Origin: Candidatus Multivorans sp.
GTDB lineage: Bacteria > Acidobacteriota > Thermoanaerobaculia > Multivoradales > Multivoraceae
Assembly (NCBI GenBank): GCA_965238135.1
Contig: OZ250177.1
Span: forward strand, 541,744 to 605,743
Direction of reading: 5' to 3'
DNA: 64,000 nt
Shown here: piece by piece, positions 2,120-33,041 of the stretch
Layout of the letters: every line of letters begins with the position of its first letter
Position numbering within the stretch: the stretch's first letter is position 1
Program-made: the position numbers and the translations under genes
Notes under the pieces: model-generated
What the model saw: the letters and a program-made list of their open reading frames with translations, nothing else
Databases searched by the model: none
Told to the model about the DNA's origin: nothing

Positions 2120-2281
2120 CACTCTTGTTTGGTCCCACCGGGTTGGCCCCACCGGGATGGCTCTGCGCCGCCTGGTGGGCGGCGCGCCGGCGGTTGCGCT
2201 TTACTCGGTCTTTACAAACGAAGGGGAGGATCGCGCGCCGTGACCGGAAGTAACGGGGCGCACACCAGAACGAGGGGCACA

Positions 2282-8051: not shown

Positions 8052-8090
8052 AGGTGGGGCTCCCGTCGTGTGGACGGGAAGCTGCGTCAG

Positions 8091-8240
8091 TTGGAGAAGG
8101 CGCTTGAGATCGACGCGGATCACCCGCGCGCTCTGCAGGTTCTTTTCCACAGCCTGGACGAAACTAGGAATTCCGGCTAACATTCTTTGTTTGGCCCCAC
8201 CGAGACGGCTCTTGCGCCGCCTGGTCATCGGCGCGACGGA
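8091..8240 (+). repeat. ~150-bp degenerate duplicate of the TPR-gene 3' end plus downstream leader (copy of 2030-2190)
   Basis: 8091-8180 encodes LEKALEIDADHPRALQVLFHSLDETRNSG*, paralogous to the TPR protein C-terminus LERALQIDPDHPRAGEILYSLGGNPEQLR*. It is followed by the shared motif ctaacaYtctttgtttggYcccaccg...ggctctKgcgccgcctggt in both copies. Roughly 75-80% identity. Confidence 0.75.
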
Positions 8241-8527
8241 GTTGCCTTGGTGGGACCCTGAGTCGGGCCGGTCCGGGTTGGACAAGTGCCTGACCGGGAG
8301 CGGCTTGGAGTCGAACGGGCAGTCGGAAGAATGATCGTCGCGGCCGTCGGCCGCGAGACGCCTCCGGGCTTCATCGGGTTTTTTCCATTCCCAGGGAGAA
8401 TCACCAGGGCGTGATCGGTTTTGTCCGATACGCCCGCAGGAGTATTGATCGTGTTTCCGTCCCAGGCTGTCCCGAGGGCGTGTGGATGGCTTGGTGGAAG
8501 GTCGACTAACTAAGTGGGGGGCAATAG

Positions 8528-17471: not shown

Positions 17472-19823
17472 ATGGACAAGCGAGATCTCTCAGAGCGCGA
17501 TATCTGCACGAAGTTCATCACGCCCGCCCTGCGCGGGGCCGGATGGGACGAGATGTCACAGCTTCGCGAGGAGGTGAGCTTCACCGATGGCCGCATCACC
17601 GTGCGAGGAAAGATGGTTTCGCGCGGAAAGCGGAAGCGCGCCGACTACATCCTCGACTTCAAGCCGAACATTCCGCTCGCGGTGATCGAGGCCAAGGACA
17701 ATACCCACAGCGTGGGCGACGGCATGCAGCAGGCCTTGGACTACGCCGGGACCCTGAACATCCCGTTCGCGTTCTCGTCGAACGGCGACGGCTTCGTGTT
17801 CCACGACCGCACGGGGGCCAGTACGCCCCGCGAGACGAACCTGCCGCTCGACGCGTTTCCGTCGCCGGCCGATCTGTGGGCGCGCTATCGGGCCTGGAAG
17901 GGCCTGACGCCGGAGGCCGAGAGGATCGTCCTCCAGGACTACTTCGAGGACCGTGGCGGCAAGACGCCGCGCTACTACCAGATCAACGCCGTCAACGCGA
18001 CGATCGAGGCCATCTCCAAGGGGCAGGACCGCATCCTGCTCGTCATGGCCACGGGCACGGGCAAGACGTACACCGCTTTCCAGATCATCTGGCGGCTGTG
18101 GAAGGCGCGGCGCAAGAAGCGCATCCTGTTCCTTGCCGACCGCAACGTGCTCATCGACCAGACGATCGCGAACGACTTTCGCCCGTTCGGCGGGGCCATG
18201 ACCAAGCTCTCGCGCGACATCGACGCCTCCTTCGAGGTGTATCTCGGCCTCTATCAGGCGATCACGGGGCCGGACGACCACCAGAAGGCGTTTCGGAAGT
18301 TCTCGCCGGAGTTCTTCGATCTGATCGTGATCGACGAATGCCACCGGGGAAGTGCAGCTGACGATTCGGCGTGGCGCGAGATCCTCGAGTACTTCTCCTC
18401 CGCAACCCAGATCGGCCTCACCGCCACGCCGAAGGAGACGAAGTATGTCTCCAACATCGACTACTTCGGGGAGCCCGTCTTCTCCTACTCCCTGAAACAG
18501 GGCATCCGCGACGGCTTCCTCGCGCCCTACAAGGTGGTCAAGGTCCACATCGACCGGGACGTCGAAGGCTACCGTCCGGAAAAGGGCCAGCTTGACCGCG
18601 ACGGAGAGGAGGTTGAGGACCGCATCTACAATGTCAGGGACTTCGATCGCACGCTCGTCATCGACGGGCGGACGAAGCTGGTGGCTGAGAAGGTCACGAC
18701 GTTTCTGCGGGAGAGCGGCGACCGCTTCCAGAAGGCGATCGTTTTCTGCGTCGATCAGGAGCACGCCGCCCGGATGCGCCAGGCGCTCGTCAACGAGAAT
18801 GCCGATCTTGTCGAGCGCAACGCACGGTATGTCATGCGGATCACGGGCGCGGACGAGGCTGGAAAGGCCGAACTGGGGAACTTCATCGATCCCGAATCGA
18901 GTCACCCGGTGCTCGTCACCACGTCGCGCCTGCTGTCCACCGGCGTCGATGTCCAGACGTGCCGGGTCATCGTGCTCGACCGGGAGGTAGGCTCGATGAC
19001 CGAGTTCAAGCAGATCGTCGGCCGCGGCACCCGAGTGCATGAGGACACCGGGAAGTTCTACTTCACGCTCATCGACTTCCGGAACGCGAGCGGCCACTTC
19101 GCGGACCCGGACTTCGACGGCGAGCCGGTGCAGATCTACGAACCAGGCGTGGGGGATCCGATCCTTCCTCCCGATACGCCCGAGGATGAAGACCTCGGTG
19201 AAGAGGAGATGGCCGCTATCGGGGGCGGCAACGGCCTGCCGCCCACGGAGACGCATCCCCTGAAGATCTTTGTTGATGGCATCGAGGCGACCATCGTCGC
19301 CGAGCGGGTCGAGTACCTCGACGAGCACGGCAAGCTCATCACCGAGTCGCTACGCGACTTCACGAGGAAGGCGCTGCGCAGGCGCTTCGCGAGCCTGGAC
19401 GACTTCCTGAACCGTTGGAATGCTGCGGAGCGCAAGCAGGCGATCATCGACGAGATGGCGGCCGAGGGCCTGCCACTTACTGCGATTGTCCCTGAATTGG
19501 GCAAGGATCTCGACCCCTTCGATCTCGTCTGCCACATCGCCTTCGACGTCAAGCCGCTAACCCGCCGGGAACGGGCCGAGAACGTCAGGAAACGGGACGT
19601 GTTCACGAAGTACGGAGGACAGGCCCGCGCCGTGCTCGACGCACTGCTCGACAAGTACGCCGACGAGGGCGTCATCAATCTCGACGACGCCAACGTGCTC
19701 AGGATTCCGCCGCTCGACAGTCTCGGCACCCCGGTCGAGCTCGTCCGCGCCTTCGGCGGAAAGCCCGGCTTCGAGCGGGCCGTGCGCGATCTTCAGTCGG
19801 CGCTCTACAGGGAGGTCGCCTAA
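17472..19823 (+). CDS. hsdR: Type I restriction-modification system, restriction (R) subunit HsdR
   Basis: N-terminal HsdR_N PD-(D/E)xK nuclease motif (DYILDF...IEAKD). SF2 helicase motifs I LVMATGTGKT, II DECHR, III LTATP, VI QIVGRGTR. GGGAGG RBS upstream. Confidence 0.9.
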   Translation: MDKRDLSERDICTKFITPALRGAGWDEMSQLREEVSFTDGRITVRGKMVSRGKRKRADYILDFKPNIPLAVIEAKDNTHSVGDGMQQALDYAGTLNIPFAFSSNGDGFVFHDRTGASTPRETNLPLDAFPSPADLWARYRAWKGLTPEAERIVLQDYFEDRGGKTPRYYQINAVNATIEAISKGQDRILLVMATGTGKTYTAFQIIWRLWKARRKKRILFLADRNVLIDQTIANDFRPFGGAMTKLSRDIDASFEVYLGLYQAITGPDDHQKAFRKFSPEFFDLIVIDECHRGSAADDSAWREILEYFSSATQIGLTATPKETKYVSNIDYFGEPVFSYSLKQGIRDGFLAPYKVVKVHIDRDVEGYRPEKGQLDRDGEEVEDRIYNVRDFDRTLVIDGRTKLVAEKVTTFLRESGDRFQKAIVFCVDQEHAARMRQALVNENADLVERNARYVMRITGADEAGKAELGNFIDPESSHPVLVTTSRLLSTGVDVQTCRVIVLDREVGSMTEFKQIVGRGTRVHEDTGKFYFTLIDFRNASGHFADPDFDGEPVQIYEPGVGDPILPPDTPEDEDLGEEEMAAIGGGNGLPPTETHPLKIFVDGIEATIVAERVEYLDEHGKLITESLRDFTRKALRRRFASLDDFLNRWNAAERKQAIIDEMAAEGLPLTAIVPELGKDLDPFDLVCHIAFDVKPLTRRERAENVRKRDVFTKYGGQARAVLDALLDKYADEGVINLDDANVLRIPPLDSLGTPVELVRAFGGKPGFERAVRDLQSALYREVA

Positions 19824-19826
19824 GAG

Positions 19827-21278
19827 ATGTCCGTCAGCACTCTGGTCAAGTCCATTCAGAACATCATGCGCCAGGACGCTGGGGTGGACGGCGACGCGCA
19901 GCGCATCAGCCAACTGTGCTGGATGTTCTTCCTCAAGATCATCGACGACCAGGACCAGGAACTCGAGCTCTTTGACGACGGCTACGGCTCGCCCGTCCCT
20001 GCAGATCTGCGATGGCGGAGCTGGGCGGCCGACCCGGAAGGCATCACCGGCGAAGAGCTGCTCGACTTCGTCAACGGCGATCTCTTTCCACAGCTCAAGG
20101 AACTCCCGCCCAGGGCAGGCCCTCGCGCGAACGTCGTGCGCGACGTGTTCGAGGACGCCTACAACTACATGAAGTCTGGTCAGTTGATGCGGCAGGTGGT
20201 CAACAAGATCAACAGCATCGACTTCAACAACCTGGCCGCCCGCCAGCACTTCGGCGACATCTACGAGCAGATTCTGAACGACCTGCAATCGGCCGGCAAC
20301 GCGGGTGAGTACTACACCCCGCGGGCCGTGACCACCTTCATGGCCCGGATGATCGACCCGAAGCCGGGCGAGATCCTGTTCGACCCGGCTTGCGGCACGG
20401 GCGGGTTCCTCACCTGCGCTATGCAGCACATGCGCGAGCGGTATGTGAAGCGGCCCGAGGACGAGGCGAGCATGCAGGTTTCGCTGCTCGCGGTGGAGAA
20501 GAAGCCGCTTCCCCACATGCTCGCCGTCACGAACATGCTGCTGCACGGCATCGAGGATCCGTCCTTCCTGCGCCACGACAACACCTTGGCGCGGCCCTAC
20601 ACCTCCTGGGGCCGCGACGAGCGCGTGGACATCGTGCTGACCAATCCGCCGTTCGGCGGCAAGGAGGAGGATGGCATTGAGTCGAACTTCCCACAGCACT
20701 TCCGAACGCGAGAGACGGCGGACCTGTTCCTGGCCCTGATCATCCGGCTACTCAAGCCTGGAGGCAGGGCCGCCGTCGTCCTGCCAGACGGCTCCCTGTT
20801 CGGCGAAGGCGTCAAGACGCGGCTCAAGGAGCACCTGATGAAGGAGTGCAACCTTCACACCATCGTGCGCCTGCCGAACTCGGTGTTTCGCCCCTACGCC
20901 TCGGTCGGAACGAACCTGCTGTTCTTCGAGAAGGGCGAGCCGACGAGGGACATCTGGTTCTGGGAGCATCTCGTACCCGAAGGCCAGAAGGCCTACTCCA
21001 TGACACGGCCCGTACGGGTGGAGCATCTCGACGACTGCGCCGATTGGTGGGGTGGGACGGAGCGCACCGGCCGGGAGGAGGGTGGCCGGGCCTGGAAGGT
21101 GAGCGCCGACGAGATCAAGGCGCGCGGCTACAACATCGACATCAAGAACCCTCATACCGAGGAGGAGGACCTTGGCGATCCCGAGACGCTTCTGGAGGAA
21201 CTGACGAGCGCCGAGGCTGAGGTGCTGTCGGTGCGGAGTGAGTTGAGGCGAATTCTGACTGAGGCGCTCCTACGGTGA
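19827..21278 (+). CDS. hsdM: Type I R-M N6-adenine DNA methyltransferase subunit HsdM
   Basis: Motif I FDPACGTGGFL and motif IV LTNPPFGG; HsdM N-terminal domain. Start is 4 nt after the hsdR stop. Confidence 0.92.
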   Translation: MSVSTLVKSIQNIMRQDAGVDGDAQRISQLCWMFFLKIIDDQDQELELFDDGYGSPVPADLRWRSWAADPEGITGEELLDFVNGDLFPQLKELPPRAGPRANVVRDVFEDAYNYMKSGQLMRQVVNKINSIDFNNLAARQHFGDIYEQILNDLQSAGNAGEYYTPRAVTTFMARMIDPKPGEILFDPACGTGGFLTCAMQHMRERYVKRPEDEASMQVSLLAVEKKPLPHMLAVTNMLLHGIEDPSFLRHDNTLARPYTSWGRDERVDIVLTNPPFGGKEEDGIESNFPQHFRTRETADLFLALIIRLLKPGGRAAVVLPDGSLFGEGVKTRLKEHLMKECNLHTIVRLPNSVFRPYASVGTNLLFFEKGEPTRDIWFWEHLVPEGQKAYSMTRPVRVEHLDDCADWWGGTERTGREEGGRAWKVSADEIKARGYNIDIKNPHTEEEDLGDPETLLEELTSAEAEVLSVRSELRRILTEALLR

Positions 21279-23044
21279 ACGCCGACCGCTTGCTCGCCCT
21301 CTACGACCGCGTGGCGGACGCGCCGGACGCCATCGGCCGCCTGAGCCGGTTCGTGCTTGACACCGCCGTGCGCGGCAAGCTCGTGAAGCAGGATCCGGCG
21401 GATGAACCGGCATCAGAGTTGCTGCGACGGATCGACGCCGAGAAAGCGCGAATGGTCAAGGCGGGAGAGATCAGAAAGCCCCGCAATCTGTCGACCGGTG
21501 AGGACTTGGTGGCACTCTTTGAGGTTCCGGCCAAATGGTGCTGGCGGCGCCTCGATACAATAGGAGCTATCGTTGGTGGTGGCACGCCATCGGCTGGCGA
21601 TCCTGCGAACTTCTCGGAGCCCGGAGAGGGCGTCGCGTGGTTGACACCCAAGGACCTCGGCAGCCTCGGAAGCTCATACATCGGCCGCGGTAGCCGCGAT
21701 CTCTCGGGAAAGGGCTTTCGTTCGTCATCGGCCACTCTCATGCCGACTGGGACTGTCCTCTTTTCAAGTCGAGCGCCGATCGGGTACGTCGCGATCGCTG
21801 CAAACCCGGTTGCGACGAATCAGGGGTTCAAATCCGTCGTCCCCTATGTTTCTGATTGTTCGAGGTACATAGCGCTGGTGATGCAGGCGTTTGGGCCTGC
21901 AATCGACGCCATGGCGTCAGGGACCACCTTCAAAGAGGTTTCGGGAAGGACTGTCGCCGGCGTTCCCTTCCCTCTCCCGACGCTCGCCGAGCAGCACCGC
22001 ATCGTCGCCAAGGTCGATGAACTCATGGCGCTGTGCGACCGTTTAGAGGAAGCTCGCGTCTCCCGGGAGGGCGCCCGCGACCGGCTGACGAGGGCCAGCC
22101 TGTCGCGCTTGGTTGCGGCAGAGGCAGAAGAAGCGCAGGCAGCTACGTTCCGGGTTCTTGCGCGTTTCACAGTCGATGCCCTTCCCGCGCTGACGGCCCG
22201 CGCCGACCAAGTCCAGGGCTTTCGCCAGACCATTCTCGGCCTCGCGGTCCGGGGAAGGCTGGTCGAGCAGGATCCCGCTGACAAACCGGCGTCGGAACTC
22301 CTGAAGCGGATCGCCGCCGAAAAGGCGCGAATGGTGGGGGCGGGGGCGATCCGGAAGCCACGCAGTCTGCCGAACGGTGAGGACTTGGCAGCACCGTTCG
22401 GGATTCCGGACACCTGGTGCTGGGACCGCCTCGATGCCATTGGAGCAATCGTCGGTGGTGGCACACCGTCTGCGAGCGATCACAAGAACTTTGCGCAATC
22501 GGGAGAGGGTATTCCGTGGCTCACGCCGAAAGACCTCGGCGGCCATGAAGACCTGTACATCGAACGCGGCAGCCGCGATCTGTCGACGAGTGGTCTGCGA
22601 TCGTCCTCGGCGACACTCATGCCTGCGGAAACAGTCCTTTTCAGTAGCCGTGCGCCGATAGGGTACGTGGCAATCGCGGCGAACCCAGTTGCCACCAATC
22701 AGGGCTTCAAGTCCATCGTCCCGTACGTGCCGGGCTGCTCCAGATTCATCGCCTTGGCGATGAGGGCGTTCGGGCCTGAGATCGCTGCCAGTGCTCCGGG
22801 GACGACATTCAAGGAGGTGTCAGGAAAGCTCGTCGCTGGCGTTCCCTTTCCTCTCCCGCCACTCGCCGAGCAGCACCGCATCGTCGCCAGGGTCGACGAA
22901 CTCATGGCGCTGTGCGACGGGCTGGAGGGAAGTCTTGCGACTGCGGACGACACGCGCGGCCGCCTGCTTGACTCTCTCCTCGATGAAGCGTTGGCCGCCG
23001 ACTGGGCCGCCACGGTCCAACACGTCGCGGAGTCTCAGCCATGA
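21275..23044 (+). CDS. hsdS: Type I R-M specificity subunit HsdS with two near-identical target-recognition halves
   Basis: Overlaps the hsdM stop (ATGA). Two ~290-aa halves, each with a TRD and the conserved LAEQHRIVA(K/R)VDELMALCD(R/G)LE spacer; halves are ~75-80% identical to each other. Confidence 0.88.
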   Translation: MNADRLLALYDRVADAPDAIGRLSRFVLDTAVRGKLVKQDPADEPASELLRRIDAEKARMVKAGEIRKPRNLSTGEDLVALFEVPAKWCWRRLDTIGAIVGGGTPSAGDPANFSEPGEGVAWLTPKDLGSLGSSYIGRGSRDLSGKGFRSSSATLMPTGTVLFSSRAPIGYVAIAANPVATNQGFKSVVPYVSDCSRYIALVMQAFGPAIDAMASGTTFKEVSGRTVAGVPFPLPTLAEQHRIVAKVDELMALCDRLEEARVSREGARDRLTRASLSRLVAAEAEEAQAATFRVLARFTVDALPALTARADQVQGFRQTILGLAVRGRLVEQDPADKPASELLKRIAAEKARMVGAGAIRKPRSLPNGEDLAAPFGIPDTWCWDRLDAIGAIVGGGTPSASDHKNFAQSGEGIPWLTPKDLGGHEDLYIERGSRDLSTSGLRSSSATLMPAETVLFSSRAPIGYVAIAANPVATNQGFKSIVPYVPGCSRFIALAMRAFGPEIAASAPGTTFKEVSGKLVAGVPFPLPPLAEQHRIVARVDELMALCDGLEGSLATADDTRGRLLDSLLDEALAADWAATVQHVAESQP

Positions 23045-24189
23045 CCCGCGTCCCGGTATCGTCCGAGATGCTGCGCTGGGCCTGCGAGCGCTCCGGTCGC
23101 GACGTCGCGGACCTCGCGGCCCGTGTTCCTCAGCTTCCGGCTTGGGTCCGAGGCGAGAGACAGCCGACGCTCAAACAGTTGGAGAGGCTGGCCACGGCTA
23201 CGCGGACGCCATTCGGTTATCTGTTCCTGACCGCGCCGCCGGAGGAGCGTCTTCCGGTTCCCGACTTTCGTACGGTGTGGGGTGCTTTCCGGGCGAGACC
23301 GACCCCCGACCTGCTGGACACGCTGTACAGCATGCAACGTCGCCAGGAGTGGCTCCGGGAGAGCTTGGTCGAGAGCGACGTGGGACCGCTGTCGTTCGCT
23401 GGAAGCGCCCGCCTGACGGATGACCCGGCCTCCGTGGGTCGGGAGATGCGGCGAGCACTCGGTCTCGATGACGGCTGGGCTGCGGAAGTGAGCACCTGGC
23501 AAGAGGCTGTGAGGGAGCTTCGCCGGGCCATTGAGCAGGTCGGCGTGATGGCGGTGATCAACGGAGTAGTCGGGAACAACACGAGCCGGAAGCTGAGCGT
23601 GGAGGAGTTTCGCGGCTTCGCGCTCACGGATCCTTACGCCCCGTTGATCTTCGTGAATGGCGCTGACGCCAAGTCGGCGCAGATGTTCACTCTCGCCCAC
23701 GAGTTGGCCCACATCTGGCTTGGCACGGAGGGGGTCTCCGGCTTCGAGTCCCTGTTCCCCGGCGGCTCGGACGTGGAGGACTGGTGCAACGCGGCCGCGG
23801 CTGAACTCCTCGTCCCTTCGGAGGAAGTGGCACCTCGTTGGAACGAGGTGAAGAGGGGACCAAGGCCGTTCGAGACGCTCGCCCGGGCGTTCAAGGTGAG
23901 TCCGGTTGTTGCCGCCCGCCGGGCCCTGGACCTGAGTCTTGTCGACCGCGACGCCTTTCGCGACTTCTACAAGGGGTACGTCAAGCGCGATCTCGCGAGT
24001 GGCGCGAGTTCCACCGGGGGCAACTTCTACAACAACCAGAACACCCGTGTCGGCGAGCTGTTCGCGTCCCACGTGCTCCGTGCGGCGATGGAGGGCCGAA
24101 TCGGGTTCAAGGAAGCCTACGACCTGACTGGCTTGCGTGGAGGAACCTTCCAGAAGTACGCGAGGCGACTGGGGGTGAATCTCCCATGA
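23041..24189 (+). CDS. HTH-domain plus ImmA/IrrE-family zinc metallopeptidase (COG2856-like)
   Basis: Overlaps the hsdS stop. Central HEXXH motif HELAHIWLG within an ImmA/IrrE-like region; N-terminal helix-turn-helix-like segment. Confidence 0.75.
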   Translation: MTRVPVSSEMLRWACERSGRDVADLAARVPQLPAWVRGERQPTLKQLERLATATRTPFGYLFLTAPPEERLPVPDFRTVWGAFRARPTPDLLDTLYSMQRRQEWLRESLVESDVGPLSFAGSARLTDDPASVGREMRRALGLDDGWAAEVSTWQEAVRELRRAIEQVGVMAVINGVVGNNTSRKLSVEEFRGFALTDPYAPLIFVNGADAKSAQMFTLAHELAHIWLGTEGVSGFESLFPGGSDVEDWCNAAAAELLVPSEEVAPRWNEVKRGPRPFETLARAFKVSPVVAARRALDLSLVDRDAFRDFYKGYVKRDLASGASSTGGNFYNNQNTRVGELFASHVLRAAMEGRIGFKEAYDLTGLRGGTFQKYARRLGVNLP

Positions 24190-24722
24190 CGAACGGCACG
24201 ACCTACCTCGTGGACTCGGATGTGTTCATCACGGCGAAGAACCTGTACTACGCGTTCGGCCTGTGCCCCGGGTTCTGGAAGAGCGTGCTGCACCACCATC
24301 GGAGGGGCCGGATTTTCAGCGTCGACAGGGTTCGCAGCGAACTCCTCGCGGGCACCGAGACAGAGGATCTCGTGCGGTGGGTCAAGGAAGAAGTTCCACG
24401 GGAGTTCTTTCTCCCGGTGGATGCCGACGCTGTCGTGAGTGCCTACACGGAGATCATGATGTGGGTGCAGCGCCACGGGAGGTACTTCGACCACGCCAAG
24501 GCGAAGTTCGCCACCGGAGCGGACGGCTGGTTGGTCGCCTGCGCACGGGTTCAGGGCGCCGCCGTGGTCACGAACGAACGGGAGGCGCCGGAGTCCCGGA
24601 GGGAGATCAAACTGCCCGACGTGTGCGAGGAGTTCGGTGTGGAGCACCCCAACGTCTTCGAGATGCTTCAGGCGTTGGACATCCAGTTCGACTGGACGGA
24701 GGACCGGAAGCCGGCGTCGTGA
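24186..24722 (+). CDS. DUF4411 family (PIN-like) protein, partner of the ImmA/IrrE peptidase
   Basis: ATGA overlap with the upstream gene. N-terminal YLVDSDVFITAKNLYYAFGLCPGFW motif characteristic of DUF4411. Confidence 0.7.
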   Translation: MTNGTTYLVDSDVFITAKNLYYAFGLCPGFWKSVLHHHRRGRIFSVDRVRSELLAGTETEDLVRWVKEEVPREFFLPVDADAVVSAYTEIMMWVQRHGRYFDHAKAKFATGADGWLVACARVQGAAVVTNEREAPESRREIKLPDVCEEFGVEHPNVFEMLQALDIQFDWTEDRKPAS

Positions 24723-24813: not shown

Positions 24814-25095
24814 TCAGCCAGCGCGTTCGAAGCCGACCGTTAGCCGCGCGCCGGTCGCTCCCGCATAGCGCCGCAGCGTCGCGTACGACGGCGACACCCG
24901 GCCCCCTTCCAGCCGCGCGATCGCCGATTGGGTCGTGCCGAGCCGTTCGGCCAGTTCCGCCTGCGTCAGCTTCGCCGCCGTCCGGGCGCAGATCATCGCC
25001 TCGATCAGCGCATACTCGCTGTCGGCACTGGCGTACTCCTCCCGAAACGCCGGATCCTCCAGCAGGCGCGCCTTCAGATCCTTCAGCTTCGTCAT
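24814..25095 (-). CDS. XRE-family helix-turn-helix DNA-binding protein (HigA/antitoxin-like size)
   Basis: 93 aa; HTH segment LTQAELAERLGTTQSAIARLEGG. No adjacent toxin ORF recognised. Confidence 0.8.
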   Translation of the reverse strand: MTKLKDLKARLLEDPAFREEYASADSEYALIEAMICARTAAKLTQAELAERLGTTQSAIARLEGGRVSPSYATLRRYAGATGARLTVGFERAG

Positions 25096-26982: not shown

Positions 26983-27828
26983 ATGGACATTCGAGAGCGT
27001 CAGAATTGCCAGCGGTCGTTGGAGAGGCTGGTCGCCGTAGGTTGGCTCTATGGACGGGTCAAGAAGGTGGAAGGCTGGCGGCTGGTGTTCATAGTAGGCG
27101 TCGCGGGTCTGCTGCTGTCGGGTCTGGCCGTGGAAGCGGATGCCTACAGCCGAGTGGCGGCGATCGTCGTCGTCTTGCTCTGGTGCATAGACCAGGCGGT
27201 TCTGGTTGCATGCGCCGACAGGATGAAGGAAGAGGCGGCGGCGATTCAAGAAGACTTCGACTGTTTCGTCCTCGGCCTACCGTGGCCGGAGCACTGCGGT
27301 GTCGGGCGGCCGACGGATGACAGGGTGAGAGACTTGGCGACGATGGCAGGTGGGCGAGGCGAGCAGAGGGAGGAGCTGGCTGACTGGTACGGAAGGGACG
27401 GTATTCCCGAGGAACCGCTGTCAGCGCGGCTGTATTGCCAGAGAACCAACTGCCGGTGGGACGAACGACTGCGCAAAGAGTGGATCTGCGCCATCAGATC
27501 CTTCGCGGGCGGGTCGCTGGCTGTGGGCCTCGTTGTGGCAGCGCTGGCCGGCGTCTCGCTGCTCGGGGTGGTTCTTGCGGCGGCGGCGGGACTCAGGCTT
27601 GTTGCGTGGTTGGCGATGGAAGTCAGGGCTCAATCGGCGGCGAGGAAGCGTATGAAAGAGCTGCATGGCTTCCTGTCGCGGCCCGGCGCGCAGACCGGCA
27701 GGCTGACCCTTTGCGACTCCCGGCTCGTGCAGGCGCGACTCTTCGAGCACCGGCGGCTTAGCCCGACTGTGCCGGATTGGTTTTATCGGTTGAGGAAGAC
27801 GGATCACGAGGCGATGGAACCGGGTTGA
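26983..27828 (+). CDS. Membrane protein with 2TM + soluble linker + 2TM architecture (candidate pore-forming effector, SLATT/S-4TM-like)
   Basis: ATG at 26983. TM pairs LVFIVGVAGLLLSGLAVEA / VAAIVVVLLWCIDQAVLVACA and GGSLAVGLVVAALAGVSLLGVVLAAAAGLRLVAWLAMEV, separated by a ~90-aa soluble region; charged C-terminal tail. No catalytic motifs. Confidence 0.55.
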   Translation: MDIRERQNCQRSLERLVAVGWLYGRVKKVEGWRLVFIVGVAGLLLSGLAVEADAYSRVAAIVVVLLWCIDQAVLVACADRMKEEAAAIQEDFDCFVLGLPWPEHCGVGRPTDDRVRDLATMAGGRGEQREELADWYGRDGIPEEPLSARLYCQRTNCRWDERLRKEWICAIRSFAGGSLAVGLVVAALAGVSLLGVVLAAAAGLRLVAWLAMEVRAQSAARKRMKELHGFLSRPGAQTGRLTLCDSRLVQARLFEHRRLSPTVPDWFYRLRKTDHEAMEPG

Positions 27829-27950
27829 ATAGGCACCGTAGCCAACTGGCTGGCCGGACGTGGAAGCAGCCGTCGAGAAGGCCACGGTCTGGGCGCGGAG
27901 GGGCTTCGGATCGTGGAGCGTCCGCCGGTGTCTTCGAAGGGAAGGGTCGA

Positions 27951-28376
27951 CTACGTTCGTCGCTTGCGCAGGATGGAGTCCACGAAGCGGAGAACCGTGG
28001 CCCGTTCGTCGGCGTCGAGTTCCAGTATCTGTCGAACCAGCACGACGGTTGAGTTACGCCGCTGTGCGTCCGACGGGTCCCCGTCGGTGGGAACCCAATG
28101 TGCCCAGGCCGCTAAGGTCTGAAAGTTCAGCCCATAGAGGTCGGCTAGTTCCAGGAGCACGATCGGGTCGGGCTGTCTGATTAGGCCCCGTTCGATCTGG
28201 GACAGGTATGCGTTGGATCGCCCGATGCGTCGTTCTACCTCGCGAAGAGACAGTTGGTAGTGCAGGCGAGCGCGGCGCAGAACGCCACCCACCTGCGGAG
28301 GATCTTGGCGGTGAGTGCGATCTGGCTTAGCCGGGGACCGGGCGGTCGCTGATCTACGGGAAGCGTGATCGGTCAT
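27951..28376 (-). CDS. XRE-family HTH transcriptional regulator with C-terminal extension, divergent from the TRIP13-SMODS operon
   Basis: HTH segment LSLREVERRIGRSNAYLSQIERG followed by a ~70-aa C-terminal domain. Start uncertain (28376 or 28490). Confidence 0.65.
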   Translation of the reverse strand: MTDHASRRSATARSPAKPDRTHRQDPPQVGGVLRRARLHYQLSLREVERRIGRSNAYLSQIERGLIRQPDPIVLLELADLYGLNFQTLAAWAHWVPTDGDPSDAQRRNSTVVLVRQILELDADERATVLRFVDSILRKRRT

Positions 28377-28601
28377 GGTTCTGGGGCCGCTACGACCGAG
28401 GAGCCCGGGAGCCGCAGTGTGTGTGTGTCGAGCGACCCGGCGTTTCGGTTGTTCCGAGCGCGATCCTCTCGGTGCGAGAGGGGCTCGCATGGCTTCGCGG
28501 CTGTCCAGCGCAGGCGACGCTCGCCCTTCCGCCGCCGGGGGAGTTCCAGTCGGTGGAGCCGGGGGTTGCGGTCGATCGGAATGCGAAGTAGAGTTGCACC
28601 T

Positions 28602-29522
28602 ATGCAAACCAGAAGCGCAAATGGGCTGATGGCGGAGTCGGTACGCGTCGTGCGCGTGATGCCAGATCCGGCGTACGCGGGCCTATGGGACTCGATTGTA
28701 GTGGATGCCTCGGTAAAGGACCGGCTGCTCCGAGCGACAGTGTTGAATCTCCGGCTACGCGCCGAGCTGCCGTTCGAGACGACGGCGCTGCACGGGCTCG
28801 TCCTGCTGCATGGACCGCCAGGAACGGGCAAGACGACGTTGGCGCGCGGGCTGGCCCAGGAACTGGCGAAGATCACGGCGGACCGTAAGGCTCGACTGGT
28901 CGAGGTCAACCCGCATGGTCTCATGAGCGCCGAACATGGGGAGAGCCAACGAGCGGTAACGCAACTGCTTACAGAGTACGTGCCGAGCCTTGTTGACGAC
29001 GGGATGGCAACGGTGGTTCTCCTCGACGAGGTCGAGTCGATGGCCATCGCGAGGAGTGAAGCGTCGCTGGGCGCGAATCCAGCAGACGTGCATCGAGCGA
29101 CGGATGCAGTGCTGGCGGCGCTCGACTTGAATACGACGGAGGTCCCCAATTTGGTCTTCGTGGCGACGAGCAACTTCGTCGACGCGCTGGACGAGGCATT
29201 CTTGTCGCGGGCAGACGTCCATATCTGCGTCCCGGCGCCGGATTCTGCGGGGATCGTGGAGATTCTGAAGCACGCGTTTCGGTCGATGGCGCCGGCTTTT
29301 TCCTGCCTCGGCGAGTTGGCCTCCGACCCTCGACTCAAAGAGGTCGCAGGGCGTCTGGCGGGCGCGGACGGCCGACGAGTCCGCAAGACGATCATGGAAG
29401 CGATGTTAGGGCGCCAGGAGACGGTACTGGATCCGGGAAGCACAACGATCGATGATCTGCTCGCGGCGGCGACGCGGGTTATGGAGAACAGCGACATCGA
29501 GCATGGAAGCTCGGAGGGCTGA
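28602..29522 (+). CDS. TRIP13/Pch2-like AAA+ ATPase (CBASS Cap6-like)
   Basis: Walker A [23 protein letters not shown]. The blocks [69 protein letters not shown] align closely with conserved TRIP13 blocks ([22 protein letters not shown] / [21 protein letters not shown] / VLIDEVESL / [30 protein letters not shown]). Start could be 28581-28629. Confidence 0.8.
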   Translation: [306 protein letters not shown]

Positions 29523-29523
29523 A

Positions 29524-30018
29524 ATGGAGCGACAGAGGACAATCGCCGCGTCACCGGTTCGGAGCGCCGCCGAAGCGTGGGACGTTGTAACTACACTGAT
29601 CGCAGAGACGCTTGAGCGCAGCCCTGAGGTCCCGGATGGGAGCGTAGCCGAGGAGTTTGCGGCGCTGGAGGGGCTGGGCCCGGCTCTCATCGCGGCCGGG
29701 CATTTGGAATCGGACGGCCTGGTGCTCTGCGACGATGGCCTGCATGTGACGATTCGGGTCTTGACCGCGGATGCGGCACTCGCAGTCAAGGAGAATCTCA
29801 ATCCCGTGCCCGGTGGCGGGCGTGCTTCGGGTGCGTGGATCCTCTATCTACCTTCGCCCGGAGCACTCGAAACGAGCGTGGCCGGCGCGGCGAAGCGGTC
29901 TGCGCATCTATCTGTAGACGCACCGCCGAAGTCGGCGCCGTTGGCAAAGGGGAAGAAACGGGAGGCAGGTTCGGTCATTGATCTGGGCGCACTCCGCAAG
30001 GCGACATCGAAATGGTGA
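29524..30018 (+). CDS. Small protein of unknown function (164 aa), translationally coupled between TRIP13-like ATPase and SMODS; candidate HORMA-domain protein
   Basis: GGAGGG RBS overlapping the TRIP13 stop. No recognisable motifs; basic disordered C-terminal tail (PPKSAPLAKGKKREAGSVIDLGALRKATSKW). HORMA assignment is inferred from context only. Confidence 0.5.
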   Translation: MERQRTIAASPVRSAAEAWDVVTTLIAETLERSPEVPDGSVAEEFAALEGLGPALIAAGHLESDGLVLCDDGLHVTIRVLTADAALAVKENLNPVPGGGRASGAWILYLPSPGALETSVAGAAKRSAHLSVDAPPKSAPLAKGKKREAGSVIDLGALRKATSKW

Positions 30019-30518
30019 CATCGACCTCGGTCTCGACCTATACGCGCACTCATACGGCTACGCACTTGGCGGACGTCATTCTGGGCTCGATTGCCGACAT
30101 CTTGGGAACGCTTCGCATTGATCCCACGCGGCTGTTTGCGGATTGGGAGACGGATCAGGCGGCCATCTCGAACTGGATTGCGGAAGGCTCGCTCAAGTGC
30201 GTCGCACTCGAATGCCACCGCCCGGACGGAACGGTGAACCCGATCTTCGAGTTCCCGCTGTCGTACACGGGCACGGGGCCGGGGAATCGGAAGTTCACGG
30301 CTGATCGGGCCGCGCTGGCACGCTATCTGGCGAAGCTGCAGCTAGTGCCGGCTGGAACTACATATCGCCTCTTCTGCAGCTTCAATGGACCCCATTCGGT
30401 GCAGGCGGGATGGTCCCCTGGGACAAGGGCGTCCGTTGGGGGCCTGCGCTCGGTGAGCTTTGGGACCCTCGCTGCCGGACCGCACGCCGGCGCGGGAATG
30501 CGCTACTACCGAAAGTAG
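30012..30518 (+). CDS. Small protein of unknown function (168 aa), translationally coupled (ATGGTGA overlap); candidate HORMA-domain protein (Cap7-like size)
   Basis: Overlaps the previous ORF's stop by 7 nt. Gene-like codon usage. No sequence motif recognised. Confidence 0.5.
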   Translation: MVTSTSVSTYTRTHTATHLADVILGSIADILGTLRIDPTRLFADWETDQAAISNWIAEGSLKCVALECHRPDGTVNPIFEFPLSYTGTGPGNRKFTADRAALARYLAKLQLVPAGTTYRLFCSFNGPHSVQAGWSPGTRASVGGLRSVSFGTLAAGPHAGAGMRYYRK

Positions 30519-30526
30519 GTGAGAGG

Positions 30527-31384
30527 ATGAGCTACGTCGACGACGCGTTCGATAAGTTGAAGTCGAATCTCGAGATTACGAAGACCGAGAGCCACCAGGC
30601 GCAGATTCGGCACCAGTTGGTGCGCGAGCACATCGAGGCCTCGTGGGAGTTGGTGGAGCATTTTCTCACCGGCAGCTACAAGCGACACACCAAGACGAAG
30701 AAGCTGAAGGACGTCGACATATTCGTCGTCGTCGATCCAGAGGGGCCGCAGGCCGCATTGGCTGACGGTACGGGAACGGCGGCTGTGCTTGCGTTGCACG
30801 ACTTACTGGCCGAACGCTGGAACGATCTGGGCGCCGACGACAACGTGGTGACGATCCACTATGGCGACGAAGACGTCGCGTCGTACGAGGTCGCTCCGGT
30901 CTTCCCGCGAAGCGGTGGCGGCTATTCGATGCCCAACGGCGTGGCGTGGATGGACACCGACCCGCAGGAGCAAGCGGAGCTCGTGACGGTGAAGAACAAG
31001 GAGTGCGACGCGAAGTTCGTGCCCTTTGTGAAGATGGTCAAGGGAATCAACCGCGAGGCAGGAGACCCAATCGAGCCCGCGTTTCTGATGGAGGTGATGG
31101 CGCTGGACCTTGTGGTAGAGCCGTTTGGCCGGTACAGGGACGAGATCAGGTTCTACCTGGCTTCGGTCGCGGACCAGATTACCGACGACTGGCGGGATCC
31201 AGTCGGGCTTGGTCCGGACGTGAATGCCCGGATGGGGGCCCGCCGTCGGAAAGAGCTGTCGGAGATTGTGCGCGGGTGGCTGGGTGTCGCCGAGGAGGCG
31301 TTGCAGCTTGAATACGAAGGCAAAGAACGGGCGGCGGTAGAGGCGTGGCGCGAGCTGTTCGGCTGGCGCATGCCGAGGCCATGA
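30527..31384 (+). CDS. SMODS / CD-NTase-family nucleotidyltransferase (cGAS/DncV-like cyclic-oligonucleotide synthase)
   Basis: Hallmark pol-beta NTase active site GSYKRHTKTKKLKDVDIFVVVD (GS...[DE]h[DE]h) plus a downstream acidic triad residue in VTIHYGDEDVASYEVAPV. 285 aa. GGTGAGAGG RBS 8 nt after the preceding stop. Confidence 0.8.
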   Translation: MSYVDDAFDKLKSNLEITKTESHQAQIRHQLVREHIEASWELVEHFLTGSYKRHTKTKKLKDVDIFVVVDPEGPQAALADGTGTAAVLALHDLLAERWNDLGADDNVVTIHYGDEDVASYEVAPVFPRSGGGYSMPNGVAWMDTDPQEQAELVTVKNKECDAKFVPFVKMVKGINREAGDPIEPAFLMEVMALDLVVEPFGRYRDEIRFYLASVADQITDDWRDPVGLGPDVNARMGARRRKELSEIVRGWLGVAEEALQLEYEGKERAAVEAWRELFGWRMPRP

Positions 31385-31573: not shown

Positions 31574-33041
31574 TCACGGCGCCTCGCCCGCTACCGCCGC
31601 CTGTTCGTCGGCGAGCATGTTGCGGCGGTGGAGGACGTACGCCTTGATCAGCGCGACATCATCGCCGTCGAGGACCGGGGAGAAGTCGGGCATGCCGAGG
31701 TCGACAAGAGCGCCCTCGATCAGGGCGGCCTCGTAGGAGTCGAAGACGCGCTGCGACGACTCGCGCAGGTCGGGCGTGACGCCGCCGGAGACCGCGCCGT
31801 AGCCGTGGCAGACCAGGCAGTACTGGTTGAACAGCCGCCGCCCGGCGTCGATGTCCCTGGTCGAGGCGCCGTGCTCGACGCGGGTGACGCGCACCTCACG
31901 TCGCTCCTGCCGTTCGATCGGCTGGCCGGTGGCGCCCAGGGCATAAACGACGATGCGGCCCTCGCTTTCGACCGCCTGCCGGGCCGAGCGGGTGCCGACG
32001 GTGCCGAAGGCGCCGCCCCAGCCGGACATCACCGCGATGTACTGCGTGCCGCCGCTCTCGAAGGTGATCGGCGGCGCGTCCTCGGCCAGCATCTGACCCG
32101 AGAGGCCGGTGGCGTCGACGACTGCTTGAGGGATGTCCTCGGGTGCCGCGGGGCGCACGCCGAGGTTCCACTGGCCGGGGGTGTACTTGAAGTTCGGGTC
32201 CGGCACGTAGAAGTTCGCCATCTCCATCGCCGGGATGTAGACCAGCCCCGTTTGCGGGCTGAACGACATCGGATGCCAGTTGTGCCCGCCGAGTGGCCCG
32301 GGCGAGACGGCGACTGCCTGGTCGGTGTAGCGGGCGCCGGCCAGTTCGACCGGGCGGCCGGTGGCGAGGTCGACGTGACTGGCCCAGGTCACGGTGACGA
32401 ACTCCTCGGCCGAGATCAGCTCGCCGGTGCGGCGGTCGAGGACGTAGAAGAAGCCGTTCTTGGGCGCCTGCATCAGCACCTGGCGCACCCGGCCGTCAAT
32501 CGGCAGCTCGGCAAGCATGATCGGTTGGGTGGCGGTGTAGTCCCAGGTGTCGCCCGGCGTCGTCTGGTAGTGCCAGACGTGCTCGCCGGTGTCGGGGCGC
32601 AGCGCCACGATCGAGGACAGGAACAGGTTGTCGCCACCGCCGGGGCTGCGGATGTTCCGGTCCCACGGCGAGCCGTTGCCGACGCCGATGTAGAGCAGGT
32701 CGAGTTCGGGGTCGTAGACGATCGAGTCCCACACGGTGCCGCCGCCACCTGCGGTCCACCATTCGCCGGTCCAGGTCTCGGCGGCCATGCGCATCGCCTC
32801 GTTCTCGAAGCCGTCGGCCGGGTTGCCGGGCACGGTGTAGAAGCGCCACGCCAGCTCGCCGGTCTCGGCGTCGTAGGCGTCGACGTAGCCGCGCCCGCGG
32901 CACCGACCAGGGCCGCGTCGTCGACTCCGTAGGCGGCCTCCGCGCGACGGGCCGGCGGCTGGGAGAAGACGGAGGTTATACGACCAGAAACGCCGTGGCT
33001 GCCAAGCCGGCATGGGCGAGAAAGGTGCGCGATGGTCTCAT
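31574..33041 (-). pseudogene. PQQ-dependent quinohemoprotein alcohol dehydrogenase pseudogene (signal peptide joined to distal propeller + cytochrome c domain; internal deletion and at least two frameshifts)
   Basis: ATG at 33041 encodes MRPSRTFLAHAGLAATAFLVV then a stop. The frame then shifts to ...SQPPARRAEAAYGVDDAALVGAAGA, and again near 32887 to GYVDAYDAETGELAWRFYTVPG... through to a C-terminal CLVCH heme-binding cytochrome c domain. About 250 aa of the N-terminal propeller are absent relative to intact paralogs in this window. Confidence 0.7.

What the first reader, a model, noticed from the sequence alone, without database searches (positions are those of the whole stretch)
28376..31384. 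Type III CBASS-like operon in inverted order: TRIP13-like ATPase - two small unknown proteins - SMODS/CD-NTase, with no canonical effector
Four tightly coupled + strand genes (RBS overlapping the preceding stop, a 7-nt ATGGTGA overlap, and an 8-nt gap) encode: (i) an AAA+ ATPase whose blocks align with eukaryotic/bacterial TRIP13 (Pch2); (ii) and (iii) two ~165-aa proteins with no recognisable motifs, at the size and position expected for HORMA-domain (Cap7/Cap8) proteins; (iv) a CD-NTase/SMODS nucleotidyltransferase with an intact GS...DVD...D active site. From established knowledge, CD-NTase + HORMA + TRIP13 defines type III CBASS, but there the cyclase is first and a nuclease/phospholipase/TIR/TM effector follows. 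Here the order is reversed. Nothing downstream of the cyclase looks like an effector; the next gene is a decayed PQQ-ADH. Upstream there is only a divergent HTH regulator and, beyond it, a 4-TM protein. So this is either a CBASS variant with a non-adjacent or unrecognised effector, or a TRIP13-HORMA-regulated nucleotide-signalling module with a different output. The two small proteins may be novel.
Basis: partly seen in the sequence, partly recalled or inferred. Interest (0 to 1): 0.88.

Follow-up and report, generated by a model that had tools for sequence, protein, structure and literature searches.

The report
Ordinary two-HORMA type III CBASS
This is a complete, ordinary anti-phage CBASS system of the two-HORMA "type III" kind; its "missing" killer protein is the four-helix membrane protein just upstream, and its "inverted" gene order is the normal order for this subtype.

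Summary
The four coupled + strand genes are real. They are Cap6 (TRIP13-like AAA+ ATPase), Cap8 (the "locked-open" HORMA), Cap7 (HORMA2) and a CdnD-type CD-NTase. All four match CBASS profiles and the solved P. aeruginosa ATCC27853 proteins.

The two small proteins are not novel. The effector is not missing either. The 4-TM protein at 26983-27828 is an S_4TM effector (Pfam 1.6e-45).

In about 60 related loci from many phyla the order Cap6-Cap8-Cap7-CdnD does not change. The effector varies: S_4TM, TIR-SAVED, another SAVED fusion, or SLATT-like. It lies just downstream of the cyclase or, in this window's clade, upstream beyond a divergent 141-aa XRE regulator. RefSeq plasmids are annotated with the same order, and published tables list "Type III (HORMA2/3) 4TM" systems.

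One detail is mildly new. This clade has no CapH/CapP pair. It has a stand-alone HTH, which co-occurs with a 17-bp palindrome (TGCGAAGTAGAGTTGCA, 28582-28598) over the -10 element of the cap6 promoter. The palindrome is found in about 27 of 36 loci with the HTH and in none of 27 without it.

Verdict: a new member of a known kind, of low interest.

The parts
26983..27828 (+). S_4TM (SMODS-associating four-transmembrane) effector, 281 aa. It has two TM hairpins, at about residues 31-80 and 167-214, with a soluble insert of about 90 aa between them.
   Evidence: Pfam S_4TM scores 1.6e-45 (156 bits against a cutoff of 26.9), matching 2-277 of a 291-position profile. PADLOC 'Effector 4TM' scores 2.1e-42. 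The gene lies in conserved synteny with the core in L002-L014, L018-L020, L045 and L071.
27951..28376 (-). Stand-alone XRE-family HTH regulator, 141 aa, transcribed divergently from cap6. It is the putative repressor of the operon.
   Evidence: Pfam HTH_3 scores 4.9e-10 and HTH_31 7.6e-10; the PADLOC capH match is only weak at 0.0036. About 40 related loci carry homologues at 42-77% identity, all ending at the same C-terminus. The AF2 model has a disordered 1-23, a five-helix HTH at 29-91 and two C-terminal helices. The gene was not called in the source assembly.
28566..28598 (+). Putative cap6 promoter and operator. The -35 element TTGCGG is at 28566-28571, followed by a 17-nt spacer and the -10 element TAGAGT at 28589-28594. 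The 17-bp palindrome TGCGAAGTAGAGTTGCA is at 28582-28598. ATG 28602 lies 8 nt after the -10 element, which suggests a leaderless transcript (inference).
   Evidence: This is the only conserved block in the intergenic alignment across phyla. The palindrome TGCnA-N7-TnGCA lies next to the cap6 start in about 27 of 36 distinct loci with the HTH and in 0 of 27 without it. It occurs once in the 64-kb window. The simple sigma-70 scan did not flag the site.
28602..29522 (+). Cap6, a TRIP13/Pch2-like AAA+ ATPase of 306 aa (297 aa if it starts at ATG 28629).
   Evidence: PADLOC TRIP13 scores 1.8e-110 over 10-297 of a 302-position profile. Pfam AAA scores 6.8e-23. Human TRIP13 is the best PDB hit at 1.4e-34. 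Walker A GPPGTGKT, Walker B DE, sensor-1 N191 and R203 are conserved in 58 relatives.
29524..30018 (+). Cap8, the second HORMA protein, 164 aa. It is homologous to P. aeruginosa HORMA1 of the preprint, called HORMA3 in later papers, which is described as locked open and acting as a scaffold.
   Evidence: PADLOC HORMA PDLC00885 scores 4e-35. The precomputed Pfam annotation for this exact protein is PF27322 Cap8. The PDB 6P8P sequence hit scores 5e-5. The AF2 model (pLDDT 76.5) hits only 6P8P and 6P8S_C in Foldseek, with probability 1.00 and TM 0.66.
30012..30518 (+). Cap7, a HORMA2-type closure-motif-binding HORMA protein, 168 aa. Its N-terminal tail has Thr at nearly every odd position from 3 to 17.
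   Evidence: Pfam bacHORMA_2 scores 9.1e-22. PADLOC HORMA scores 5.1e-78. PDB 6P8R and 6P8S P. aeruginosa HORMA2 score 2.9e-17. The N-terminal pattern is read directly from the sequence and is conserved in relatives.
30527..31384 (+). CdnD-type CD-NTase (SMODS), 285 aa. The active site is G49-S50, D62, D64 and E121.
   Evidence: NCBIfam CBASS_cyclase_b scores 7.8e-70 (235.6 bits against a cutoff of 200). PADLOC Cyclase scores 1.4e-89. Pfam SMODS scores 2.6e-13. PDB 6P8U P. aeruginosa CdnD scores 1e-38. Motif conservation was checked in 60 sequences.

Best explanation
The locus at 26983-31384 is an intact six-gene, two-HORMA type III CBASS anti-phage system. It comprises an S_4TM effector, a divergent XRE repressor, and the operon cap6 (TRIP13)-cap8-cap7-cdnD.

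**Shown here.** The identity of every protein, intact catalytic and ATPase motifs, conserved synteny, and a conserved palindrome over the cap6 promoter that co-occurs with the HTH gene.

**Inferred by homology with the P. aeruginosa and E. coli systems (Ye et al., bioRxiv 10.1101/694695).**
1. Cap7 binds a peptide "closure motif" that appears on infection. It then closes and activates CdnD, with Cap8 as a scaffold.
2. CdnD makes a cyclic oligonucleotide, probably a cyclic trinucleotide such as cAAA.
3. The Cap6 hexamer threads the Thr-rich N-terminus of Cap7 and takes the complex apart. This keeps the system silent in uninfected cells.
4. The nucleotide activates the S_4TM protein. It damages the inner membrane and aborts the infection.

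**Inferred from sequence.** The 141-aa HTH dimer binds TGCGAAGTAGAGTTGCA over the -10 element and holds cap6-cdnD transcription low. The effector gene lies outside that operon.
For: - All six proteins match the relevant profiles: Pfam, PADLOC and NCBIfam and solved structures.
- The Cap8 fold was confirmed with AF2 and Foldseek.
- The source's precomputed annotation of this very contig reads S_4TM / AAA / Cap8 / bacHORMA_2 / SMODS.
- The core order is invariant in about 60 loci from Spirochaetia, Gemmatimonadetes, Alphaproteobacteria, Acidobacteria, Pseudomonadales, Actinomycetota, Chloroflexi and Verrucomicrobia. S_4TM lies upstream or immediately downstream of the core.
- Other relatives carry different effectors in the downstream slot: TIR-SAVED, another SAVED fusion, or SLATT_4-like.
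- RefSeq annotates the same order with an 'S-4TM family putative pore-forming effector' in Rhodococcus opacus pLPS8.
- Lau et al. Table S1 lists 'Type III (HORMA2/3) 4TM' systems.
- A CdnD-4TM type I CBASS defends E. coli experimentally (bioRxiv 10.1101/2023.05.21.541620).
- Catalytic and ATPase motifs are conserved.
- The operator co-occurs with the HTH gene.
Against: - Nothing here is experimental.
- The nucleotide product, the trigger peptide and the way S_4TM senses the signal are unknown. S_4TM has no recognised nucleotide-binding domain and no solved relative.
- The effector is on a separate transcription unit from the core, so co-regulation is assumed, not shown.
- The -35/-10 assignment did not pass the generic sigma-70 scan.
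- The palindrome could be a conserved promoter feature rather than a repressor site.
- The HTH gene was not called by the source's gene finder.
Confidence: 0.9

Rival explanations
1. The four genes form a TRIP13/HORMA-regulated nucleotide-signalling module with no dedicated cell-killing effector, or with an unrecognised, non-adjacent one, and with an output other than abortive infection.
For: Nothing effector-like lies downstream of the cyclase in the window; the next gene is a truncated PQQ dehydrogenase on the other strand. The effector is separated from the core by an oppositely oriented gene.
Against: A full-length S_4TM effector lies 774 bp upstream of cap6. It keeps that position in at least 12 loci from different phyla. 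In other relatives the same effector family lies directly after the cyclase.
Confidence: 0.04
2. The locus is a decaying remnant. The effector was moved away from the operon by a rearrangement, and the system is no longer functional in this genome.
For: The neighbouring region shows decay and mobile DNA: a truncated PQQ dehydrogenase at 31574-33013 and an IS inside an LRR gene at 5089-6453. The source assembly did not call the HTH gene.
Against: All six reading frames are intact, with conserved catalytic, Walker and HTH residues. The same layout recurs at 47-86% protein identity in many phyla. That pattern indicates selection on the whole module, not a one-off rearrangement.
Confidence: 0.04
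3. The divergent HTH is a CapH orthologue. It is still relieved by a CapP-type metallopeptidase supplied in trans, for example the HTH-Peptidase_M78 fusion at 23041-24189. The system would then be induced by DNA damage, as in E. coli MS115-1.
For: The position and orientation match CapH, upstream and divergent (Lau et al.). The architecture is the same: an HTH plus two C-terminal helices. There is a weak PADLOC capH hit at 0.0036. More distant relatives of the same CBASS family do carry CapH-CapP fusions or pairs at that position. An M78 protein lies 4 kb upstream in the window.
Against: None of the other loci with the HTH has an M78 peptidase within ±8 kb. The window's M78 gene is paired with DUF4411 after a type I R-M operon and is unrelated to the CapPs of relatives (30% over 83 aa). 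Similarity to a relative's CapH is limited to the generic HTH (30% over 56 aa). Foldseek gives only generic SinR/DdrO/ImmR-type hits.
Confidence: 0.12

Closest known systems
P. aeruginosa ATCC27853 two-HORMA type III CBASS: CdnD, HORMA2 (Cap7), HORMA1/3 (Cap8), Pch2/TRIP13 (Cap6) and NucC (Ye et al., bioRxiv 10.1101/694695; PDB 6P8P, 6P8R, 6P8S, 6P8U)
   Same: All four core proteins are sequence homologues: CdnD 1e-38, HORMA2 2.9e-17, HORMA1 5e-5 plus a fold match. The ATPase is closer to eukaryotic TRIP13 than to other AAA+ proteins, as reported for two-HORMA operons.
   Different: The effector is an S_4TM membrane protein, not the NucC nuclease. A dedicated XRE regulator lies between the effector and the core. 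The third catalytic acidic residue is Glu, not Asp.
'Type III (HORMA2/3) 4TM' CBASS of Lentzea, Frankia and Streptomyces (Lau et al., bioRxiv 10.1101/2022.04.27.489752, Table S1), and the annotated Rhodococcus opacus pLPS8 locus (NZ_CP093381.1)
   Same: The core order is the same: AAA ATPase, two small proteins, then the cyclase. The effector family, S-4TM, is also the same. Cyclase identity to the Rhodococcus locus is 62.8%.
   Different: In those systems the effector follows the cyclase, and the regulator is a CapH-CapP fusion or is absent. Here the effector is upstream and the regulator is a stand-alone 141-aa HTH.
E. coli MS115-1 one-HORMA type III CBASS (CdnC-HORMA-TRIP13-NucC with CapH/CapP)
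   Same: The logic is the same: a HORMA sensor, a TRIP13 reset and a CD-NTase, with a divergent HTH repressor acting at the promoter.
   Different: The E. coli system has one HORMA protein, a cyclase-first order, a clade C cyclase, a nuclease effector and the CapP protease partner.
EcCdnD12-4TM type I CBASS (bioRxiv 10.1101/2023.05.21.541620)
   Same: A clade D cyclase paired with a 4TM effector. Anti-phage activity is shown experimentally.
   Different: It has no HORMA or TRIP13 regulators.

Membership tests
Type III CBASS, two-HORMA subtype | CD-NTase (SMODS) with an intact GS / [DE]x[DE] / acidic active site | tested here: met
   NCBIfam CBASS_cyclase_b scores 235.6 bits against a cutoff of 200. 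The best PDB match is P. aeruginosa CdnD at 1e-38. G49-S50, D62 and D64 are invariant, and position 121 is always acidic (E or D) in 60 relatives.
Type III CBASS, two-HORMA subtype | HORMA2-type (Cap7) protein encoded next to the cyclase | tested here: met
   Pfam bacHORMA_2 scores 9.1e-22, above its cutoff. PADLOC scores 5.1e-78. PDB 6P8R scores 2.9e-17. Open/closed switching and peptide binding cannot be tested here.
Type III CBASS, two-HORMA subtype | Second, diverged HORMA protein (Cap8 / HORMA3) | tested here: met
   PADLOC HORMA scores 4e-35. The precomputed Pfam annotation is PF27322 Cap8. The AF2 model matches only 6P8P and 6P8S_C, with probability 1.00.
Type III CBASS, two-HORMA subtype | TRIP13/Pch2-clade AAA+ ATPase (Cap6) | tested here: met
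   PADLOC TRIP13 scores 1.8e-110 over the full length. TRIP13 proteins are the top five PDB hits, ahead of VCP/Cdc48. The ATPase motifs are conserved.
Type III CBASS, two-HORMA subtype | A nucleotide-activated effector encoded in the same locus | tested here: met
   S_4TM lies at 26983-27828 and its linkage to the core is conserved. Activation by the signal was not tested.
Type III CBASS, two-HORMA subtype | Cyclic oligonucleotide synthesis and protection against phage | not testable with these tools
   This needs biochemistry and phage challenge.
CD-NTase clade D05 | Phylogenetic placement with the clade D05 enzymes of two-HORMA operons | tested here: inconclusive
   The nearest solved enzyme is the D05 member P. 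aeruginosa CdnD (clade as stated in the paper). No tree with reference clades was built.
S_4TM effector family (Pfam PF18159) | Full-length match to the family profile and four transmembrane segments | tested here: met
   The match scores 156 bits against a cutoff of 26.9, covering 2-277 of a 291-position profile. Two hydrophobic hairpins were found.
CapH/CapP regulatory module | HTH repressor gene upstream of the CBASS core and divergent from it | tested here: met
   The HTH gene at 27951-28376 (minus strand) faces cap6 across a 225-bp intergenic region that carries a conserved palindrome.
CapH/CapP regulatory module | Adjacent CapP Zn-metallopeptidase (Peptidase_M78 / DUF955), or a CapH-CapP fusion | tested here: not met
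   All HTH homologues are stand-alone proteins of about 140 aa. No M78 gene lies next to them in any locus. CapP-type genes occur only in relatives that lack this HTH.
CapH/CapP regulatory module | Sequence homology to CapH beyond the generic HTH | tested here: inconclusive
   PADLOC capH scores only 0.0036. Similarity to a relative's CapH is 30% over 56 aa, in the HTH only. The two-helix C-terminal domain has a similar outline, but no specific structural hit was found.

The most novel reading that the evidence does not exclude
In this widely transferred clade of two-HORMA CBASS, the CapH/CapP damage-responsive switch has been replaced. In its place is a stand-alone XRE repressor that binds a 17-bp palindrome over the -10 element of a probably leaderless cap6 promoter. 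The membrane effector gene lies outside the repressed operon. This would be a CapP-independent mode of CBASS transcriptional control, and its inducing signal is unknown.
Probability: 0.5. Interest if true: 0.25.

Novelty: new member of a known kind. Interest (0 to 1): 0.15.

Why it matters
It matters little beyond correct annotation. The locus adds one more environmental example of a type III CBASS with a 4TM effector.

Two points could be useful to people who work on CBASS:
- The survey shows that TRIP13-HORMA-HORMA-cyclase is the fixed core order of two-HORMA systems, and that the effector and regulator slots are swappable.
- This clade offers a compact, testable repressor-operator pair that has no CapP partner.

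The 4TM effector family still lacks a structure and a known ligand-sensing mechanism. Any well-conserved member is therefore a reasonable candidate for study.

Tried and rejected
- **CapH assignment for the HTH.** Sequence comparison with a relative's CapH and with a CapH-CapP fusion, a PDB sequence search and Foldseek of an AF2 model gave only generic XRE similarity. I therefore did not file it as CapH.
- **CapP in trans.** I searched all loci for the three M78 peptidases available. None is linked to this HTH.
- **Solved relative of S_4TM.** None was found.
- **Generic promoter and terminator scan.** It found no sigma-70 sites and no convincing terminator between the convergent S_4TM and HTH genes. 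The promoter proposal rests on cross-locus conservation instead.
- **Second operator upstream of S_4TM or elsewhere in the window.** None was found within three mismatches. The inverted repeat at 28458-28488 fits the loose palindrome pattern but is not conserved in relatives.
- **Literature.** I could not retrieve Burroughs et al. 2015, Millman et al. 2020 or the published Ye et al. 2020. Statements about them rest on citing papers and on my own knowledge. The gene order of the P. aeruginosa reference operon could not be read from the preprint text.
- **tRNA or integrase boundary of the island.** There is no tRNA in the window.


Full report
**1. Observation**

Reading the sequence confirms four tightly packed + strand ORFs.
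- The ATPase stop TGA is at 29520-29522. The next ATG is at 29524, with a GGAGG 8 nt upstream.
- The second and third ORFs overlap by ATGGTGA at 30012-30018.
- Eight bases separate the TAG at 30516-30518 from the cyclase ATG at 30527. The cyclase ends at 31384.

It is the first base of the start codon of the divergent HTH gene (27951-28376, minus strand). The ATPase begins at ATG 28602. The source assembly's gene caller chose ATG 28629.

**2. What the proteins are**

Profile searches identify every component.

| Gene | Coordinates | Key matches |
|---|---|---|
| Cap6 (TRIP13 ATPase) | 28602-29522 | PADLOC TRIP13 1.8e-110, full length |
| Cap8 (second HORMA) | 29524-30018 | PADLOC HORMA 4e-35 |
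| Cap7 (HORMA2) | 30012-30518 | Pfam bacHORMA_2 9.1e-22; PADLOC HORMA 5.1e-78 |
| CdnD (CD-NTase) | 30527-31384 | NCBIfam 'CBASS oligonucleotide cyclase' 235.6 bits (cutoff 200); PADLOC cyclase 1.4e-89 |
| S_4TM effector | 26983-27828 | Pfam S_4TM 1.6e-45; PADLOC '4TM effector' 2.1e-42 |
| HTH regulator | 27951-28376 (-) | XRE-type HTH (HTH_3 4.9e-10) |

Against solved structures, three of the core proteins match the P. aeruginosa ATCC27853 proteins:
- the cyclase matches CdnD (6P8U, 1e-38);
- the third ORF matches HORMA2 (6P8R, 2.9e-17);
- the second ORF matches the chain deposited as HORMA1 (6P8P, 5e-5).

Human TRIP13 is the best solved relative of the ATPase (1.4e-34), ahead of VCP/Cdc48.

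The second ORF was the weakest case, so I modelled it from 36 homologues (pLDDT 76.5, pTM 0.72). Foldseek against the PDB returned only the four P. aeruginosa HORMA1 chains as significant hits (probability 1.00, TM 0.66). The precomputed annotation of the window's own contig (ENA ERZ26167216, 4.45 Mb) reads S_4TM / AAA / Cap8 / bacHORMA_2 / SMODS.

Naming varies between sources. The preprint and the PDB call the locked-open protein HORMA1. Later papers call the pair HORMA2/HORMA3 or Cap7/Cap8.

**3. Integrity**

- In an alignment of 60 cyclases, G49-S50, D62 and D64 are invariant. The third catalytic position is always acidic. It is Glu in the window (E121); overall E occurs in 43 and D in 17.
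- In 58 ATPase relatives the Walker A (GPPGTGKT), Walker B (D142-E143), sensor-1 (N191) and R203 are conserved.
- Cap7 begins MVTSTSVSTYTRTHTATH, with Thr at nearly every odd position from 3 to 17. Ye et al. report a similar alternating Ser/Thr pattern in one-HORMA proteins, where it is gripped by the Pch2 pore loops. Applying this to Cap7 is inference.

**4. Gene order and effector in relatives**

The cyclase has more than 1300 homologues at E <= 1e-20 and more than 120 at 74-100% identity.

I fetched 62 loci from species-representative genomes and several metagenomic contigs. I mapped the six window proteins onto them by tblastn.
- **Core order.** Cap6-Cap8-Cap7-CdnD is the same in every locus that holds the core, down to 37% cyclase identity. 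The loci come from Spirochaetia, Gemmatimonadetes, Alphaproteobacteria, Acidobacteria, Pseudomonadales, Actinomycetota, Chloroflexi and Verrucomicrobia.
- **Effector position.** In the window's close clade (L002-L014, L018-L020, L045, L071) S_4TM lies upstream on the same strand, with the HTH gene between it and the core. In L017, L021, L027 and L028 it lies upstream on the opposite strand. In most actinobacterial loci, and in L024-L026, L072 and L073, it lies directly after the cyclase.
- **Other effectors.** Some loci gave no BLAST hit to S_4TM. Those I checked with Pfam carry TIR-SAVED, another SAVED fusion, a SLATT_4-like protein or a divergent 4TM protein in the downstream slot.

Annotated RefSeq plasmids show the same order.
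- Rhodococcus opacus pLPS8 has AAA ATPase, two hypothetical proteins, 'CBASS oligonucleotide cyclase' and 'S-4TM family putative pore-forming effector'.
- A Methylobacterium plasmid has a divergent 360-aa XRE regulator, then AAA, a hypothetical protein, HORMA, cyclase and DUF6602.

Table S1 of Lau et al. lists 'Type III (HORMA2/3) 4TM' systems in Lentzea, Frankia and Streptomyces. Their regulator and CD-NTase gene numbers are four apart, which fits the same order.

The 'inverted' order is therefore the rule for two-HORMA systems. The effector is present, only displaced.

**5. The regulator**

Homologues of the 141-aa HTH (42-77% identity) lie next to the core in about 40 loci. All end at the same C-terminus, so they are stand-alone proteins, not CapH-CapP fusions.

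Relatives that lack this HTH carry, at the same divergent position, either a CapH-CapP fusion (HTH_3 plus Peptidase_M78, L056) or a separate HTH and M78 pair (L058). Ten such loci were found. None of the other loci with the HTH has an M78 gene within 8 kb.

The window's M78 gene (23041-24189) is paired with DUF4411 behind a type I R-M operon. It is unrelated to those CapPs.

The AF2 model of the HTH (pLDDT 75.4) has three parts:
- a disordered N-terminus (1-23);
- a five-helix HTH (29-91);
- two C-terminal helices (101-118 and 122-140).

This outline resembles SinR, DdrO and CapH. However, Foldseek hits are generic, and similarity to a relative's CapH is confined to the HTH. I describe it as working like a CapH-type repressor but do not file it as CapH.

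**6. Operator and promoter**

The HTH-cap6 intergenic regions of six loci from different phyla share only one conserved block, just before the cap6 start.

In the window the block reads as follows:
- TTGCGG at 28566-28571;
- a 17-nt spacer;
- TAGAGT at 28589-28594;
- 7 nt, then ATG at 28602.

The palindrome TGCGAAGTAGAGTTGCA (28582-28598) lies across the -10-like hexamer.

A loose pattern, TGCnA-N7-TnGCA, is found next to the cap6 start in about 27 of 36 distinct loci with the HTH and in none of 27 without it. Extra copies precede the duplicated operons of L027 and L028. The exact motif is unique in the window.

In the close clade the ATG at 28602 is conserved, while the codon equivalent to 28629 is often not a start. 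Together with the -10 spacing, this suggests a leaderless transcript. The repressor-operator assignment and the leaderless start are inferences. The generic sigma-70 scan did not flag the site.

**7. Mechanism**

By homology with the characterised systems:
1. Cap7 senses an infection-associated peptide, closes, and activates CdnD, with Cap8 as scaffold.
2. CdnD makes a cyclic oligonucleotide. P. aeruginosa CdnD makes mainly cAAA.
3. Cap6 disassembles the complex to prevent spurious firing.
4. The signal activates the S_4TM protein, which kills the cell through membrane damage.

A CdnD-4TM type I operon has been shown to defend E. coli. The HTH keeps the sensor and cyclase operon at a low level. 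What relieves the repression is unknown.

**8. Context**

The system lies at the end of a defence island with lower G+C (about 0.64, against 0.70 downstream). The island holds a type I R-M operon (hsdR, hsdM, hsdS at 17472-23044), an M78-DUF4411 pair and an HTH gene.

Identities of 80-86% with MAGs of other phyla point to recent horizontal transfer.

**9. Verdict**

This is a standard two-HORMA type III CBASS with an S-4TM effector. The three claims that made the finding look special do not hold: reversed order, missing effector and novel small proteins.

The only modestly new element is the stand-alone repressor with its conserved operator, in place of CapH/CapP.

Interest is low.

Noticed in passing
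window 28566-28619: A conserved promoter/operator block lies before cap6. The 17-bp palindrome TGCGAAGTAGAGTTGCA overlaps a -10-like TAGAGT that ends 7 nt before ATG 28602, so the mRNA is probably leaderless. A second, weaker copy (TGCAAACCAGAAGCGCA, 28603-28619) starts inside the start codon, 21 nt after the first.
   Followed up: partly
window 17472-24722: A type I restriction-modification operon (hsdR 17472-19823, hsdM 19827-21278, hsdS 21275-23044) is followed by an HTH-Peptidase_M78 fusion (23041-24189) and a DUF4411 protein (ending at 24722). Together with the CBASS this forms a defence island.
   Followed up: partly
window 2129-8051: A DDE transposase gene (5089-6453, minus strand) lies between two leucine-rich-repeat ORFs (2129-5083 and 6651-8051). 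This looks like an IS insertion that split one large LRR surface protein gene.
   Followed up: no
window 31574-33013 (minus strand): This PQQ dehydrogenase with a cytochrome c domain has only 479 aa. Its first ~40 residues look non-homologous, and it directly follows a full-length 676-aa PQQ dehydrogenase. It borders the end of the CBASS island.
   Followed up: partly
L027 about 7049-8996 and L028 about 9448-11554: Two loci (Bryobacterales and Rubritalea MAGs) carry a tandem second copy of Cap8-Cap7-CdnD, preceded by only a fragment of Cap6. Each second copy has its own palindromic operator.
   Followed up: no
L015/L016 8889-9809 and L025 9820-10665: A second, very divergent SMODS nucleotidyltransferase (21-23% identity to CdnD; Pfam SMODS 5.5e-10 for the L015 copy) lies between the cyclase and the 4TM-like effector.
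   Followed up: partly
L003-L008 (Chloroflexi contigs), about 3556-5362 and 8929-9675: In this lineage S_4TM is preceded by a DUF6932 gene and a second, 177-aa HTH gene that overlaps the S_4TM start. An Endonuclease_1 (PF04231) gene follows the cyclase by 70 nt and may be a second effector.
   Followed up: no
L001 (the window's own contig) and L002: The source assemblies' gene calls omit the conserved 141-aa HTH gene between S_4TM and cap6. Many database homologues are called with shortened N-termini (104-114 aa). The regulator is therefore easily missed in automated annotation.
   Followed up: partly
window 24814-25095 (minus strand): A 93-aa HigA-like HTH antitoxin gene has no obvious intact toxin ORF next to it.
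   Followed up: no
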